Below, in pieces: positions 20,985 to 24,166 of a DNA stretch of 27,493 bases. The number at the start of each line of letters is the position of its first letter. Positions within the stretch are counted from its first letter, which is position 1. Where the stretch lies: IMG/VR virus record IMGVR_UViG_2703718834_000005, positions 1-27,493 of that record; one strand, written 5' to 3'. The position numbers were made by a program, and so were the translations under genes. Below the pieces are notes generated by a model that saw only the letters and a program-made list of their open reading frames with translations, had not been told where the DNA came from and ran no database searches. The stretch comes from a virus. Taxonomy: Duplodnaviria; Heunggongvirae; Uroviricota; Caudoviricetes.

Positions 20985-21123
20985 GACCTTTCTCCTTCTG
21001 CATCAGCTTCACTTTTTCCAACTCAGCCCGGAATCGACCAGGCTGCTTGAAGCTGGACAGGAAGCGATCACGTAGTATGTGTTTGTGAATTTTGTCCTGG
21101 TAAGGACTGAGTTGTTTTGTCAT
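20977..21123 (-). CDS. hypothetical small protein (48 aa) between cII-like and O-like genes, not in ORF track
   Basis: AGGAG SD 5 nt before ATG at 21123; stop overlaps O-like ATG; [48 protein letters not shown]. Confidence 0.45.
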
Positions 21124-21155
21124 AATGACTCCTGTGGATTGATCCAGTAATTCCC

Positions 21156-21452
21156 TCAGAATTGCATATCAATTTGCTTAAAATCCTCGGTGGCGGCCGG
21201 GGATTTTTTCTTTGTGATTTCATCAAGCGCATACTTAAAAGCCCTGCTAATCGGACTGATGTCTGATGCCATTCCGAAAGCACACAAGACCGAAGCAATA
21301 AATCTCCAGTCCGTTCTGCTTATCTTCGATTCATGACAGCCAATCATCTTTGCCAGACCGCGCTGGGTAAGCGTTGACAGGTTGATGAGTAAATCAGTTT
21401 CAGCGCGATCAATTTCTCGCTGTGTTGGCTTGCTGTAGCTTGCTTGTGCCAT
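21156..21452 (-). CDS. cII: CII-like lysogeny establishment activator
   Basis: 98 aa; HTH region and C-terminus [18 protein letters not shown] resemble recalled lambda CII (KKRPAATERSEQIQMEF). Confidence 0.8.
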
Positions 21453-21519
21453 TTGTTAATTTTCCTATATTGGTATTGAGTTATAGCGGCACACCCAATG
21501 GATTTGCCGCTGATGTTTG

Positions 21520-21560
21520 CTCACCCGGTTAGAGGTGAAAGGCCAGAACTGTTAAAGAGC
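21520..21560 (-). promoter_or_regulatory. nutR (boxA + phage 21-type boxB)
   Basis: minus-strand GCTCTTTAACAG (boxA), 9-nt spacer, UUCACC-UCUAACCG-GGUGAG hairpin (boxB); between cro and cII-like gene. Confidence 0.7.
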
Positions 21561-21567
21561 AATTTGC

Positions 21568-21753
21568 TTATGCCGCTTGGCGGTAAGCACTTTCTTGATA
21601 CTTCAGGGCGCCAGCTGTAACGATTTCCAATCGATAGGCGTCTTTCTCTGGGATAACTTCTTTCCACTGAGAGACTGCTGCATCGCTAATGCCTAGTGCT
21701 TTAGCAACAGCACGCTGGGTTCCGAAGTGGTCAATAACATCTTTTTTGTACAT
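21568..21753 (-). CDS. cro: Cro repressor (P22 Cro-like)
   Basis: 61 aa; matches recalled P22 Cro; divergent from c2. Confidence 0.9.
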   Translation of the reverse strand: MYKKDVIDHFGTQRAVAKALGISDAAVSQWKEVIPEKDAYRLEIVTAGALKYQESAYRQAA

Positions 21754-21833
21754 AGACTCGCTCCGAAATTAAAGAACACTTAAATTATCCACCAAAGGAA
21801 TCTTAAGTCAAGTTTATTTAAGATGTCTTAACT
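21754..21833. promoter_or_regulatory. OR/PR/PRM divergent control region with 18-bp P22-type operators
   Basis: ATTAAAGAACACTTAAAT (21769..21786) and ATTTAAGATGTCTTAACT (21816..21833), half-site ATTTAAG; minus-strand PR: -35 TTGACT, 16-bp spacer, -10 GATAAT. Confidence 0.65.
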
Positions 21834-22484
21834 ATGAATACACAACTGATGGGTGAGCGTATTCGCGCTCGCAGAAAAGAACTCAAGATTAGGCAGGCTG
21901 CCCTTGGAAAGATGGTTGGCGTGTCTAATGTTGCTATTTCCCAATGGGAGCGATCTGAAACTGAGCCCAATGGCGAAAACCTATTGGCCTTAGCCAAGGC
22001 TTTGCAGTGCTCCCCTGATTACCTGTTGAAAGGAGAGGATAGTCTTTCAAACATTGCCTATCACAGCAGGCATGATCCAAGAGGTTCGTATCCTCTAATT
22101 AGTTGGGTAAGCGCAGGATGTTGGATGGAAGCTGTAGAGCCATATCATAGGCGTGCAATAGATAACTGGTACGACACAACGGTAGATTGTTCTGAAGACT
22201 CTTTTTGGCTCGACGTTAAAGGCGATTCAATGACTGCCCCGGCAGGACTGAGTATTCCTGAGGGGATGATTATTCTCGTCGACCCAGAAGTCGAACCACG
22301 TAATGGAAAGTTGGTAGTCGCCAAACTTGAAGGAGAAAACGAGGCGACATTCAAAAAGTTAGTTATTGATGCCGGTAGAAAATTCCTGAAACCACTCAAT
22401 CCACAATACCCAATGATTGAAATCAATGGGAACTGTAAAATCATTGGCGTTGTCGTTGATGCCAAGCTAGCAAACCTTCCTTAA
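21834..22484 (+). CDS. c2: C2 repressor (P22 c2-like, HTH + LexA-type autocleavage domain)
   Basis: 216 aa; N-terminal HTH (QAALGKMVGVSNVAISQWERSE), C-terminal GDSM serine and KL lysine of S24 peptidase fold; matches recalled P22 C2. Confidence 0.95.
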   Translation: MNTQLMGERIRARRKELKIRQAALGKMVGVSNVAISQWERSETEPNGENLLALAKALQCSPDYLLKGEDSLSNIAYHSRHDPRGSYPLISWVSAGCWMEAVEPYHRRAIDNWYDTTVDCSEDSFWLDVKGDSMTAPAGLSIPEGMIILVDPEVEPRNGKLVVAKLEGENEATFKKLVIDAGRKFLKPLNPQYPMIEINGNCKIIGVVVDAKLANLP

Positions 22485-22508
22485 GGGGCTTTCGCCCCTT
22501 TTTTATTT
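22483..22508 (+). terminator. intrinsic terminator after c2
   Basis: AAGGGGC-tttc-GCCCCTT followed by TTTTATTT; stem includes the c2 stop codon. Confidence 0.7.
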
Positions 22509-22573
22509 CCCGTTAAAAATCAAAGACAAACTAAATTCACGCCCATAAAATTAAGTTTTCTTCAAAAATGCAC

Positions 22574-22606
22574 TTGACCAATAAATTAAGAAGTCTTAAA
22601 TTTAAG
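22574..22606 (+). promoter_or_regulatory. PL promoter with OL operator
   Basis: -35 TTGACC (22574..22579); operator AATTAAGAAGTCTTAAAT (22584..22601) overlapping -10-like TAAATT; 12-bp perfect palindrome CTTAAATTTAAG (22595..22606). Confidence 0.6.
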
Positions 22607-22647
22607 CCATCAGCAGGACGCTGGAAGCCAAACGGAACAGATTGGCA

Positions 22648-22688
22648 GGCTCTTTAACATCGACGGACTCTCAACCTAACCGTTGAGA
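22648..22688 (+). promoter_or_regulatory. nutL (boxA + phage 21-type boxB)
   Basis: GGCTCTTTAACA (boxA, matches the GCTCTTTAACAA consensus), 9-nt spacer, TCTCAAC-CTAACC-GTTGAGA hairpin (boxB). Confidence 0.7.
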
Positions 22689-22798
22689 CCAGAACTTGAG
22701 TGGTTTTGGGGATGGCGCGAATTGCAGCTGCAAGACAGCGATCGAGAAGATAAGCACCTCGACGCGTCATGCGCCAAAGCCACTTAAAGGAGACCATC

Positions 22799-23104
22799 AT
22801 GGTAACCATTGTCTGGAAAGAATCCAAAGGTACGGCAAAAAGCCGCTACAAAGCTCGCAGAGCAGAACTTATTGCCGAGCGACGCAGTAATGAAGCACTG
22901 GCGCGAAAAATTGCGCTAAAGCTCTCTGGTTGCGTCAAAGCAGACAAAGCAGCATCACTAGGAATCCTTTGCTGCAAGAAGAAAGAAGAAGTCGTTCGAA
23001 AAAATAGAAGTATTTATTACAAAGATTCAAACCCATTAGGAAACAAAATACATGCAGTCCAAAAAATAAAATTGTACAGTAAACTACCGTACGGTGCTTA
23101 TTGA
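22799..23104 (+). CDS. N: N antiterminator, chimeric: phage 21-type arginine-rich motif with a different N-like C-terminus
   Basis: 101 aa from ATG at 22799 (AAGGAG SD, 7-nt spacer); ARM GTAKSRYKARRAELIAERR as recalled for phage 21 N; C-terminus KDSNPLGNKIHAVQKIKLYSKLPYGAY differs from the displaced remnant at 23475..23570. Confidence 0.75.
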   Translation: MVTIVWKESKGTAKSRYKARRAELIAERRSNEALARKIALKLSGCVKADKAASLGILCCKKKEEVVRKNRSIYYKDSNPLGNKIHAVQKIKLYSKLPYGAY

Positions 23105-23106
23105 GT

Positions 23107-23445
23107 ATGCTTATGGTGAAAAAGACTATTTATGTTAATCCTGACCGCGGACAAAACAGAAAAGTATCTGATAGAGGTCTTACATCTCGAGACAGGAGGA
23201 GAATAGCGAGATGGGAAAAGAGGATAGCATATGCATTAAAAAACGGTGTAACACCTGGATTTAATGCTATAGATGACGGTCCTGAATATAAGATTAATGA
23301 AGACCCAATGGATAAAGTTGACAAAGCATTAGCAACACCATTTCCTCGCGATGTCGAAAAAATTGAAGATGAAAAATATGAGGATGTAATGCACAGAGTT
23401 GTTAATCACGCTCACCAACGAAATCCAAATAAAAAATGGTCATAG
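23107..23445 (+). CDS. nun: Nun-like transcription termination/exclusion factor
   Basis: ARM DRGLTSRDRRRIARWEKRIAYALKN and C-terminal NPNKKWS with penultimate Trp, as recalled for HK022 Nun; start ambiguous (ATG 23107 or 23113, GTG 23116; track uses TTG 23101). Confidence 0.8.
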   Translation: MLMVKKTIYVNPDRGQNRKVSDRGLTSRDRRRIARWEKRIAYALKNGVTPGFNAIDDGPEYKINEDPMDKVDKALATPFPRDVEKIEDEKYEDVMHRVVNHAHQRNPNKKWS

Positions 23446-23465
23446 CCCACTTCGGTGGGTTTTTT
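23446..23465 (+). terminator. intrinsic terminator directly after nun
   Basis: CCCAC-ttcg-GTGGG followed by TTTTTT; begins 1 nt after the nun stop. Confidence 0.75.
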
Positions 23466-23474
23466 ATTGTCTGA

Positions 23475-23570
23475 ACTAACCGAATTTATTACAGCAAGCC
23501 ACGCAGCGAAATGGGTGTGACTTGTGTTGGTCGCCAGAAAATGAAATTAGGCAGCAAACCACTTATTTGA
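23475..23570 (+). pseudogene. displaced 3' remnant of N (encodes the phage 21-type N C-terminus)
   Basis: frame opens after TGA and reads TNRIYYSKPRSEMGVTCVGRQKMKLGSKPLI*; shares the 10-bp ATTTATTACA (IYY codons) with N at 23012..23021; no independent start context. Confidence 0.65.
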
Positions 23571-23578
23571 GGTGATAT

Positions 23579-23830
23579 ATGGAATTTCATGAAAGTGCGA
23601 TTTATGATTTTCGCGCTAACGCAAATTCAGTAAAACCACAGCCAATTGCAGTTCTTTTTAAAACAATGGGTGCGTGGGCTGTTTTATGCTTCGCCGCTGA
23701 TGATACTGACGCAAGAATGGCAATAGGCCAAGAGATGGAGATGGACCCGACAAACGATGAATTCATAATTTATGGCGCTCCATCTAATTACTTACTTGAT
23801 ACCTGCAACATTTACAACAAGGCTGCCTGA
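23579..23830 (+). CDS. hypothetical protein (83 aa), early-left operon
   Basis: ATG with GAGGTG SD; no recognisable motif. Confidence 0.55.
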   Translation: MEFHESAIYDFRANANSVKPQPIAVLFKTMGAWAVLCFAADDTDARMAIGQEMEMDPTNDEFIIYGAPSNYLLDTCNIYNKAA

Positions 23831-23869
23831 TGGTGGCCTTTATTTTTGGCACAAACAACAGAGGCTAAC

Positions 23870-24166
23870 ATGGAATTTAAAGGTACTGAAGGTAAGTGGG
23901 AAATAATGATGGATGGCGATGAGATTAAAATCATCCAGGCAGACTCTCTTGAAAATGGCACGGGCTGGCGTTCGTATATTGCAATCTGTGAGGAAGTTCA
24001 ATGCATTGAAGATGCCAATCTAATAGCGGCAGCACCTGACCTTCTCGAAGCGCTTCAGTTATTACTTAAGCAAACCAAAAATAGAACAACGACAACATAT
24101 CCAGAATGGTATGGAGCTGTTAATAAAGGTCTCGCAGCAATAAGAAAAGCTCTTGGGGATAAGTAA
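23870..24166 (+). CDS. hypothetical protein (98 aa), early-left operon
   Basis: ATG at 23870 with AGAGG SD 5 nt upstream (track start at 23846 is TTG); stop overlaps next ATG. Confidence 0.55.
   Translation: MEFKGTEGKWEIMMDGDEIKIIQADSLENGTGWRSYIAICEEVQCIEDANLIAAAPDLLEALQLLLKQTKNRTTTTYPEWYGAVNKGLAAIRKALGDK

What the first reader, a model, noticed from the sequence alone, without database searches (positions are those of the whole stretch)
22799..23570. nun-like exclusion gene apparently inserted into the N antiterminator gene, leaving a chimeric N and a displaced N 3' remnant
The N ORF has a phage 21-type arginine-rich motif and runs to ...RKNRSIYY, then ends with a different N-like tail (KDSNPLGNKIHAVQKIKLYSKLPYGAY). 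A Nun-like ORF with its own UUCG-loop terminator follows immediately. After that an unanchored frame encodes TNRIYYSKPRSEMGVTCVGRQKMKLGSKPLI, which looks like the original N C-terminus. The 10-bp sequence ATTTATTACA (the IYY codons) occurs at both junctions (23012..23021 and 23484..23493, 472 bp apart). This reads like a moron acquired by recombination inside N, bringing a foreign N 3' end plus nun. Whether the chimeric N is functional is open, since the N C-terminus is the RNA polymerase-contacting region.
Basis: partly seen in the sequence, partly recalled or inferred. Interest (0 to 1): 0.75.

Follow-up and report, generated by a model that had tools for sequence, protein, structure and literature searches.

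The report
Nun exclusion cassette inside N gene
This prophage carries the phage HK022 Nun gene, which blocks infection by phage lambda, wedged into its own N antiterminator gene together with a replacement N tail; the layout is real but is shared by many known phages and about 200 complete E. coli genomes, so it is ordinary.

Summary
The N ORF (22799-23104) has the phage 21 arginine-rich motif and then a different N-type tail. An intact nun gene (23113-23445, 108/109 identical to HK022 Nun) and a UUCG-loop terminator follow. Then comes a start-less fragment (23478-23570) that matches the phage 21 N C-terminus at 29 of 30 residues.

Compared with phage 21, the window is 98% identical over 1.9 kb (cII-cro-cI-pL-nutL-N 5'). 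It then has a 483-bp insert, and phage 21 resumes 11 bp after the break.

This is not a private event. The same block is 99% identical in phages mEp235 and Kapi1, and is also in mEpX1 and Stx1a phages. It is present in 62 of 69 loci that encode a close Nun relative, and about 199 of 5,426 complete E. coli genomes carry it. HK022 itself keeps the same N-tail fragment upstream of nun, because the annotated nun promoter lies inside it.

The replacement tail is a genuine N tail type, used by full-length N proteins of Salmonella phages ES18, L and BTP1. N is therefore very probably functional. The 10-bp repeat is a pair of homologous I-Y-Y codons, not an insertion scar.

Verdict: a known mosaic allele carrying a known moron (promoter-gene-terminator cassette). 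Low novelty.

The parts
22574..22602 (+). pL promoter-like site (TTGACC, 17 nt spacer, TAAATT)
   Evidence: Consensus scan. The transcription start annotated for pL in phage 21 (locus L002 position 1610) maps to window 22609.
22649..22688 (+). nutL of phage 21 type: boxA GCTCTTTA (22649-22656) and boxB hairpin TCTCAACCTAACCGTTGAGA (22669-22688)
   Evidence: Identical to the annotated boxA-L and nutL of phage 21. nutR on the minus strand (boxA 21553-21561) is also identical to phage 21. No lambda-type boxB occurs anywhere in the window.
22799..22994 (+). N gene, phage 21-type part (arginine-rich motif plus middle region, codons 1-65)
   Evidence: Part of an 1,886-bp stretch (21113-22994) that is 98.0% identical to phage 21. 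The arginine-rich motif equals PDB 1NYB. The whole N protein matches phrog_271, E = 3e-30.
22995..23104 (+). N gene, alternative 'X-type' C-terminal tail (VRKNRSIYYKDSNPLGNKIHAVQKIKLYSKLPYGAY, then stop)
   Evidence: 96.8% identical to the untranslated fragment upstream of nun in HK022. Homologous to the tails of full-length N proteins of ES18, L and BTP1. dN/dS 0.25-0.3 against diverged copies.
23052..23080 (+). P_Nun promoter inside the N tail codons: -35 ATGCAG (23052-23057), -10 TACAGT (23075-23080), preceded by TG
   Evidence: The 29-nt stretch is identical to the 'nun gene promoter' annotated in record MH547045 (O276, HK022 immunity region). It is conserved in nearly all nun loci. The -10 element is absent from N tails not linked to nun.
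23113..23445 (+). nun gene (110 codons plus stop): transcription-arrest exclusion factor
   Evidence: 108/109 identical to HK022 Nun in 6ALG and identical to the 1HJI RNA-binding peptide. Matches phrog_5632, E = 2e-69. dN/dS 0.12-0.19.
23444..23470 (+). Intrinsic terminator of the nun cassette (7-bp stem, UUCG loop, U-run)
   Evidence: -10.3 kcal/mol.
23478..23570 (+). Start-less 3' remnant of a phage 21/lambda-type N gene (NRIYYSKPRSEMGVTCVGRQKMKLGSKPLI, then stop)
   Evidence: (96.3% to phage 21). An in-frame TGA precedes it. Present in 64 of 68 loci with a close Nun relative that could be scored.
23566..23830 (+). Conserved junction from N stop to ribosome-binding site (TTTGAGGTGATATATG) and the next early-left gene (83 aa, phrog_2471, function unknown)
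   Evidence: Homology to phage 21 and to the other nun loci ends at about 23575-23584.
23012..23021 (+). Left copy of ATTTATTACA (I-Y-Y codons of the X-type tail)
23484..23493 (+). Right copy of ATTTATTACA (I-Y-Y codons of the remnant)
   Evidence: It reads ATTTACTACC or ATTTACTACA in many relatives and in phage 21.

Best explanation
The region is the early-left control module of a P22-like (Sf6/HK620-type) prophage that has phage 21 immunity.

The order of features is: pL, nutL of phage 21 type, a mosaic N gene, the HK022-type nun moron (a promoter-gene-terminator cassette), and a dead piece of N.

How it most likely works:
- In the lysogen, the constitutive promoter P_Nun lies inside the last codons of N. 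It transcribes only nun and stops at the UUCG terminator (inferred from sequence identity to HK022).
- Nun binds lambda-type boxB RNA through its arginine-rich motif. It jams RNA polymerase with its C-terminal H98, K106/K107 and W108 residues. This excludes superinfecting phages that use lambda-type N and nut (established for HK022 Nun).
- The prophage's own nut sites are of phage 21 type, so they should not be targeted. A phage that depends on N can therefore carry nun.
- After induction, N is made from pL. It has the phage 21 RNA-binding and middle region plus an alternative tail.
- That tail belongs to a family used by the full-length N proteins of Salmonella phages ES18, L and BTP1. N-modified polymerase then reads through the nun terminator into the downstream genes.

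Evolution (inference): one old recombination event between a 21-type N phage and a phage with an X-tailed N followed by nun. It placed [X tail with P_Nun - nun - terminator] at about codon 65/66 of a 21-type N gene and pushed the original tail downstream as a pseudogene.

The whole block 22987-23575, remnant included, has since spread as a unit by recombination in the flanking N sequences. HK022, the put-RNA phage in which nun was discovered, carries the same X-tail fragment upstream of nun but has no N 5' part.
For: Identity of the parts:
- N arginine-rich motif = PDB 1NYB.
- nutL and nutR are identical to phage 21, and there is no lambda boxB in the window.
- Nun is 108/109 identical to 6ALG.
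- The annotated P_Nun hexamers and spacer are identical.
- The terminator is present.

Relation to phage 21:
- 98.0% identity over 21113-22994 and 96.3% over 23478-23584, separated by a 483-bp insert.
- Only 11 bp of phage 21 are missing.
- The cI protein is 100% identical to that of phage 21.
- HK022 matches 22987-23462 only.

The block behaves as a unit:
- 90-100% identity over 22987-23575 in loci whose left flanks are unrelated. These are L071, with a different arginine-rich motif and nut region, and L060/L062, with HK022 putL. The right flanks also diverge at about 23580.

Spread:
-.

Functionality of N:
- The X-type tail occurs in full-length N of ES18, L and BTP1 without nun.
- N ORFs of 101 aa are intact in the loci that have an N 5' part.
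- dN/dS is 0.25-0.3.

Promoter:
- The -10 element TTGTACAGT exists only in tails linked to nun.

Older gene order:
- An N gene directly followed by a nun homologue is also found in Proteus prophages (Nun 38-41% identical).
Against: - No expression or phenotype data exist for this prophage. P_Nun activity, lambda exclusion and N activity are inferred from sequence identity.
- The claim that Nun spares phage 21 nut sites rests on my recollection of the classical literature (Robert et al. 1987) and on the different boxB sequence. No paper I could read confirmed it.
- The direction of the founding event cannot be proven. The right-hand joint can only be placed within about 23463-23487.
- L073, HK022 and HK75 lack the remnant. 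An X-tailed N plus nun without a remnant could therefore be the older state.
- Recombination inside the nearly identical nun gene can reshuffle left and right junction types, which blurs the history.
Confidence: 0.8

Rival explanations
1. Ancestral tandem plus one illegitimate joint. An N gene with an X-type tail directly followed by nun was the original arrangement. A single non-homologous or microhomology crossover just downstream of the nun terminator joined it to the middle of a 21-type N gene of another phage, bringing in that phage's downstream genes. On this reading nun was never inserted into N, and the remnant is the scar of acquiring a new right arm.
For: - An N gene immediately followed by a nun homologue exists at 38-41% identity in Proteus prophages, with no tail duplication.
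- The nun start region (CTTATTGAGTATGCTTATGG) resembles the usual junction between the N stop and the next gene (CTTATTTGAGGTGATATATGG). nun therefore sits where any first gene after N sits.
- L073 has N + X tail + nun with no remnant.
- The sequence after the terminator in HK022-type loci (AACAGAAT) and the N21 codons (AACCGTAT) offer microhomology.
Against: - The remnant begins within about 11 bp of the point where the X and 21 tails start to differ. A simple insertion explains this automatically, whereas this model needs a coincidence.
- The left flank is 98% identical to phage 21 for 1.9 kb.
- The model gives the same final structure, so it differs only in which parent supplied the N 5' part.
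Confidence: 0.3
2. In-place tandem duplication of the N 3' end, with nun landing between the copies and the two copies diverging afterwards.
For: The two tails are homologous and in the same orientation. The I-Y-Y codons are identical in this window.
Against: - The tails are only 50% identical in protein, while the flanks are 96-98% identical to phage 21.
- Each tail has closer relatives elsewhere. The X tail is nearer to ES18, L and BTP1 N, and the remnant is nearer to phage 21 and lambda N.
- They are therefore two alleles brought together, not diverged duplicates.
Confidence: 0.02
3. Insertion by a mobile element, with ATTTATTACA as a target-site duplication.
For: An exact 10-bp direct repeat lies 472 bp apart and occurs nowhere else in the window.
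Against: - The homology breakpoints do not coincide with the repeat.
- The right copy differs in most relatives.
- There are no terminal inverted repeats and no transposase gene.
- Other 14-15 nt imperfect repeats occur in the same 811 bp.
- The repeat falls on homologous codons of two related tails.
Confidence: 0.01
4. The downstream N fragment is not dead. It might be kept as a small peptide (MGVTCVGRQKMKLGSKPLI, starting at the internal ATG). It might instead serve as a translational-coupling leader or as a homology arm for the next gene.
For: - No stop codon or frameshift appears within the remnant in most of the loci surveyed.
- Its 3' end carries the conserved ribosome-binding site for the next gene.
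- It travels with nun even in phages that have no N 5' part (L060, L062).
Against: - It has no start codon or ribosome-binding site of its own, and an in-frame TGA precedes it.
- Several amino-acid changes are seen at its first codons.
- In mEpX1 another gene-sized insertion splits it.
- It is absent from HK022, HK75 and L073.
- There are too few substitutions for a dN/dS test.
- The relatives are so close that lack of decay carries little weight.
Confidence: 0.1

Closest known systems
Phage mEp235 N-Nun region (GenBank JQ182731; also Kapi1 MT813197, mEpX1 JQ182727)
   Same: Window 21000-23571 is 99.5% identical to mEp235. The order is the same: imm21-type repressor, nutL, N with X tail, nun, terminator, N remnant. 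In mEp235 the two genes are annotated 'antitermination protein N' and 'transcription termination factor Nun'.
   Different: A few point differences (for example N R46K and S55I). The genes downstream of the remnant differ. The remnant is not annotated in those records.
Phage HK022 nun moron (P_Nun - nun - terminator; records AF069308, X16093, MH547045)
   Same: Window 22987-23462 is 96.8% identical. Nun differs by one residue (S to R at position 11 of the 109-residue numbering of PDB 6ALG). The annotated promoter hexamers are identical. The same X-type N tail fragment lies upstream of nun.
   Different: HK022 has no N 5' part. putL RNA replaces N and nut, and the tail fragment is untranslated, with its stop codon mutated. 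HK022 and HK75 have no 21-type remnant downstream. Their put-type relatives L060 and L062 do have it.
Phage 21 N gene and imm21 region (OL657228)
   Same: cII-cro-cI-pL-nutL-N codons 1-65 are 98% identical. cI is 100% identical in protein. nutL and nutR are identical. The remnant matches N21 codons 70-99 at 29/30.
   Different: Phage 21 N is uninterrupted (99 aa) and has no nun. 11 bp of N21 are replaced by the 483-bp block.
N (gene 24) proteins of Salmonella phages ES18, L/ST64T and BTP1
   Same: They share the C-terminal tail family (NRIYY.D.NPLGNKIHAVQ...), 66-77% identical to the window's tail.
   Different: They have a P22-type arginine-rich motif and middle region, and no nun downstream (ral or other genes follow). 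They lack the TTGTACAGT -10 element.
Phage 434 'Nun C-terminal peptide-containing protein' (OL657226)
   Same: It sits directly after N and ends with the Nun arrest peptide VNHAHQRNPNKKWS.
   Different: It is a 293-aa protein (phrog_12139) with an unrelated body and no Nun arginine-rich motif, and it follows a lambda-type N. It is not present in this window.

Membership tests
HK022 Nun transcription-arrest (exclusion) factor | N-terminal arginine-rich motif that binds lambda boxB RNA | tested here: met
   Residues 20-45 are identical to the Nun peptide of PDB 1HJI. RNA binding itself was not assayed.
HK022 Nun transcription-arrest (exclusion) factor | C-terminal arrest residues H98, K106/K107 and W108 (listed in PMC5386594) | tested here: met
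   The C-terminus VVNHAHQRNPNKKWS is identical to 6ALG chain N.
HK022 Nun transcription-arrest (exclusion) factor | Expression from a repressed prophage and exclusion of lambda | not testable with these tools
   Only the promoter sequence identity could be shown.
Lambdoid N antiterminator, phage 21 specificity | Phage 21-type arginine-rich motif with matching boxA and boxB nut sites in both early operons | tested here: met
   The motif equals PDB 1NYB. nutL and nutR are identical to the annotated phage 21 sites.
Lambdoid N antiterminator, phage 21 specificity | Phage 21-type C-terminal region (the part that contacts RNA polymerase) | tested here: not met
   From codon 66 the tail is of the ES18/L/BTP1 type and is only 50% identical to N21. 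The protein is an N family member (phrog_271) but is not a pure phage 21 N.
Lambdoid N antiterminator, phage 21 specificity | Antitermination activity | not testable with these tools
   Indirect support only: the same allele occurs in isolated phages, the ORFs are intact, and dN/dS is 0.25-0.3.
Moron (autonomous promoter-gene-terminator unit in a prophage) | Own promoter upstream, own terminator downstream, and absence from an otherwise near-identical relative | tested here: met
   P_Nun at 23052-23080, terminator at 23444-23470, and absence from phage 21 with 96-98% identical flanks.
Transposable-element insertion with target-site duplication | A direct repeat exactly at both ends of the inserted DNA, conserved among copies, with terminal inverted repeats or a transposase | tested here: not met
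   The repeat lies away from the homology breaks, varies among relatives, and no inverted repeats or transposase are present.

The most novel reading that the evidence does not exclude
The nun cassette may be a defence gene that uses an essential phage gene as its landing pad. N-gene sequence brackets it on both sides: the conserved N middle region on the left, and a spare N tail with the ribosome-binding junction on the right. It also carries its own replacement N tail, with the nun promoter written into the tail codons. Homologous recombination could therefore drop it into the N gene of any lambdoid phage with a 21/lambda-type tail without inactivating N. That would explain why the remnant always travels with nun, even into put-type phages that have no N.
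Probability: 0.25. Interest if true: 0.45.

Novelty: already known. Interest (0 to 1): 0.22.

Why it matters
It matters mainly as a clarification. Nun is usually presented as HK022's substitute for N. These data show that nun normally lives in N-dependent phages of phage 21 specificity, directly behind a working N gene. HK022's well-known arrangement appears to be a cut-down version of this block.

It is also a neat small example of lambdoid mosaicism. N is built from at least three exchangeable pieces (RNA-binding motif, middle region, tail), and a promoter is embedded in coding sequence.

For annotation: the ORF after N in about 200 complete E. coli genomes, mostly labelled 'hypothetical protein', is Nun. 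The N-like fragment after it is a pseudogene.

Tried and rejected
- Target-site duplication or transposon reading of the 10-bp repeat: rejected.
- In-place duplication of the N tail: rejected on divergence.
- Nucleotide-exact breakpoints: not resolvable.
  - The left break lies in or just upstream of GAAGAAGTCG (22985-22994). PA28-type phages cross over about 8 bp further right.
  - The right joint lies somewhere in 23463-23487. There the sequence resembles both the HK022 post-terminator sequence and the N21 codons R-K-Q-N-R.
- A longer N remnant in HK022 between putL and the X tail: a 16/25 match that BLAST does not find significant. Dropped.
- dN/dS on the remnant: too few substitutions to say anything.
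- Counting uninterrupted 21-type N genes in E. coli genomes: the tool joins pieces across the insert, so the figure of 247 mixes both states and was not used.
- Literature: seven full-text searches found no open paper that discusses N and nun together or the duplicated tail.
  - The P_Nun paper (King, Madsen and Weisberg 2000, PMC94296) is not held. What I say of its content is from memory.
  - The Kapi1 papers mention neither gene.
- Pfam has no Nun family, and the N model scores below its cut-off.
- The large protein-database searches and structure prediction were not used, because nothing in the verdict depended on them.

Full report
**What is in the sequence**

The window is a P22-like prophage, closest to Sf6 and HK620 over its structural and replication genes. 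On the plus strand around the finding lie:
- a cI-type repressor gene (21834-22484) with cro opposite it;
- a pL-like promoter;
- a boxA and boxB pair at 22649-22688;
- the N ORF at 22799-23104;
- a 110-codon ORF at 23113-23445;
- a hairpin with a UUCG loop and a U-run at 23444-23470;
- a start-less reading frame that ends at 23570.

- The N arginine-rich motif is identical to the phage 21 N peptide solved with its boxB RNA (PDB 1NYB).
- The second ORF is 108/109 identical to HK022 Nun as solved on RNA polymerase (PDB 6ALG).
- The orphan frame reads *TNRIYYSKPRSEMGVTCVGRQKMKLGSKPLI*, 29/30 identical to the end of phage 21 N.
- ATTTATTACA occurs exactly at 23012-23021 and 23484-23493 and nowhere else in the window.

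**Relation to phage 21 and HK022**

Window 21113-22994 is 98.0% identical to phage 21. This stretch covers cII, cro, cI (100% identical in protein), pL, nutL and the first 65 codons of N. The prophage therefore has imm21 immunity and phage 21 N and nut specificity. Its nutL and nutR are identical to the annotated phage 21 sites, and the window contains no lambda-type boxB.

Homology to phage 21 stops at 22994 (…GAAGAAGTCG) and resumes at 23478. Only 11 bp of phage 21 sequence are skipped, and 483 bp are added.

HK022 matches only 22987-23462 (96.8%). HK022 itself thus carries, untranslated, the same alternative N tail in front of nun (…EVVRKNRSIYCKDSNPLGNKIHAVQKIKLYSKLPYGAYW…).

The reason the tail travels with nun is visible in the O276 record (HK022 immunity region). 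The annotated nun promoter, -35 ATGCAG and -10 TACAGT, lies inside these codons. The 29-nt stretch is identical in the window at 23052-23080.

Promoter, gene and terminator together make the classical moron. From memory, King, Madsen and Weisberg (2000) showed that P_Nun is constitutive in the lysogen and that its transcripts end after nun. That paper is cited in PMC5386594, but I could not read it.

**How common the arrangement is**

The arrangement is not peculiar to this window.
- Megablast finds the whole block at 99.2% in phage mEp235 and 98.5% in Kapi1. It is 99.3% identical in PDP110P1 and 97.8% in mEpX1 over the part they share. It is 90.8% identical in PA28 and a series of Stx1a phages.
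- In mEp235 the two genes are already annotated as N and Nun.
- About 199 of 5,426 complete E. coli genomes hold at least 80% of 22960-23575.
- I fetched 81 loci that encode Nun relatives from viral and genome collections and scored them with peptide probes. Of 69 loci with a close Nun:
  - 62 have N 5' part + X tail + nun + 21-type remnant;
  - 3 are HK022, O276 and HK75 (X tail + nun only);
  - 2 (L060, L062) have HK022's putL and left junction but still carry the remnant;
  - 1 (L073) has N + X tail + nun with an HK022-type right flank and no remnant;
  - 1 is cut by a contig end.

**The block moves as a unit**

Identity profiles show 90-100% identity from about 22987 to about 23575 in loci with unrelated left flanks. 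These include L071, whose N has a different arginine-rich motif and nut region, and the put-type loci L060 and L062. The right flanks all diverge just after the remnant's stop codon and the ribosome-binding junction.

The remnant therefore belongs to the travelling block. Several other mosaic joints cluster at the same spot in N:
- the third tail type of HK629 starts at about 22981;
- HK022's left junction is at 22987;
- PA28's crossover is about 8 bp to the right.

**Is N functional?**

The tail is not an oddity. A translated search with the tail peptide finds it, at 66-77% identity, as the normal C-terminus of full-length N (gene 24) proteins. These belong to Salmonella phages ES18, L/ST64T and BTP1, which have a P22-type RNA-binding motif and no nun.

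N proteins are thus mosaics of motif, middle region and tail, and the window's N is one viable combination.
- The same allele is carried by isolated phages.
- The loci with an N 5' part keep an intact 101-codon ORF.
- Against diverged copies the tail shows dN/dS of 0.25-0.3 and nun 0.12-0.19.

The -10 element of P_Nun (TTGTACAGT, from the Leu-Tyr-Ser codons) is found only in tails linked to nun. ES18 has CTGAACAGC, BTP1 has CTGAGCAGT and phage 21 has TTAGGCAGC.

**Mechanism**

- Shown for HK022: Nun binds lambda boxB RNA through its arginine-rich motif and arrests RNA polymerase through its C-terminus. This excludes lambda (PMC5386594 and PMC4496710).
- Inferred here from near identity: the same activity, expressed from P_Nun in the lysogen.
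- Inferred from the nut sequences, together with my recollection that Nun does not exclude lambda imm21: the prophage is immune to its own Nun. That is what allows N and nun to coexist.
- Inferred: on induction, N-modified polymerase reads through the nun terminator.

**History**

The simplest description is one old double crossover that put [X tail - nun - terminator] into a 21-type N gene at codon 65/66.

The main rival is an ancestral tandem of X-tailed N and nun that later joined, just after its terminator, to the middle of a 21-type N gene. An N gene followed directly by a nun homologue does exist in Proteus prophages at 38-41% identity. The nun start region also resembles the ordinary junction between the N stop and the next gene.

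The two models give the same structure. I cannot separate them, and the right joint cannot be placed more precisely than 23463-23487.

In-place duplication and a transposon-type insertion are rejected.
- The tails are only 50% identical while the flanks are 96-98% identical to phage 21.
- The 10-bp repeat falls on homologous I-Y-Y codons.
- The repeat is offset from the homology breaks.
- It reads ATTTACTACC in the commonest relatives.

**Verdict**

The feature is a known, widely distributed allele made of well-characterised parts.

I found no open-access text that discusses the duplicated N tail. That small evolutionary point may be undescribed, but it is of modest interest.

Noticed in passing
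L083:706-1587 (also L084-L087); phage 434 record OL657226 31776-32654: Directly after a lambda-type N gene, with overlapping stop and start codons, lies a 293-aa protein (phrog_12139, no Pfam match). Its last 14 residues, VNHAHQRNPNKKWS, are the Nun polymerase-arrest peptide on an otherwise unrelated body. The phage 434 record already labels it 'Nun C-terminal peptide-containing protein'. I found no functional study of it.
   Followed up: partly
L079:1155-1776 and L091:1155-1776 (Proteus prophages); Hafnia phage Pocitis76 OL512804 31772-32035: In the two Proteus loci, distant Nun homologues (38-41% identical, with the same C-terminal NRVVNHAHQRNPNKKW) sit one base after an N gene that has a P22/HK629-type tail. 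Their arginine-rich motifs differ from HK022 Nun, so they may exclude phages of other nut specificities. The Hafnia phage has a similarly distant Nun homologue (40.9% identical), but I did not inspect its upstream gene.
   Followed up: partly
L076:1313-1830 (IMG/VR contig 3300011739_000034): A putL-type (HK022-like) early-left region is followed within about 70 nt by a Nun homologue only 58% identical to HK022 Nun. There is no X-type N tail fragment in between, so this nun must use a different promoter arrangement.
   Followed up: no
L005:2420-2643 (phage mEpX1), inside the N remnant: In mEpX1 the 21-type N remnant is itself split by a further insertion of about 225 bp that carries a small ORF (annotated as similar to Sf6 gene 36). 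The spot downstream of nun keeps accepting new DNA.
   Followed up: no
L006:1689-2027 (phage PA28 and Stx1a phages): In the Stx1a-phage version the N stop codon is lost. N then runs 11 codons further and overlaps the nun start. The nun terminator stem is degraded and nun is left unannotated in several records.
   Followed up: no
window 23820-23870 and HK022 L001 about 1965-2000: A terminator-like hairpin followed by ...CAC(A/G)CAAACAACAGA... recurs after different early-left genes. In the window it follows the 83-aa ORF, and in HK022, HK75 and L073 it follows nun. This may be one of the short conserved linker sequences at which lambdoid modules recombine.
   Followed up: no
window 23089-23096: The nun-linked N tail has an extra stretch that includes the palindrome CCGTACGG, compared with the ES18, BTP1 and phage 21 tails. 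It lies just before the N stop codon, between the -10 element of P_Nun and the nun start. Its significance is unknown.
   Followed up: no
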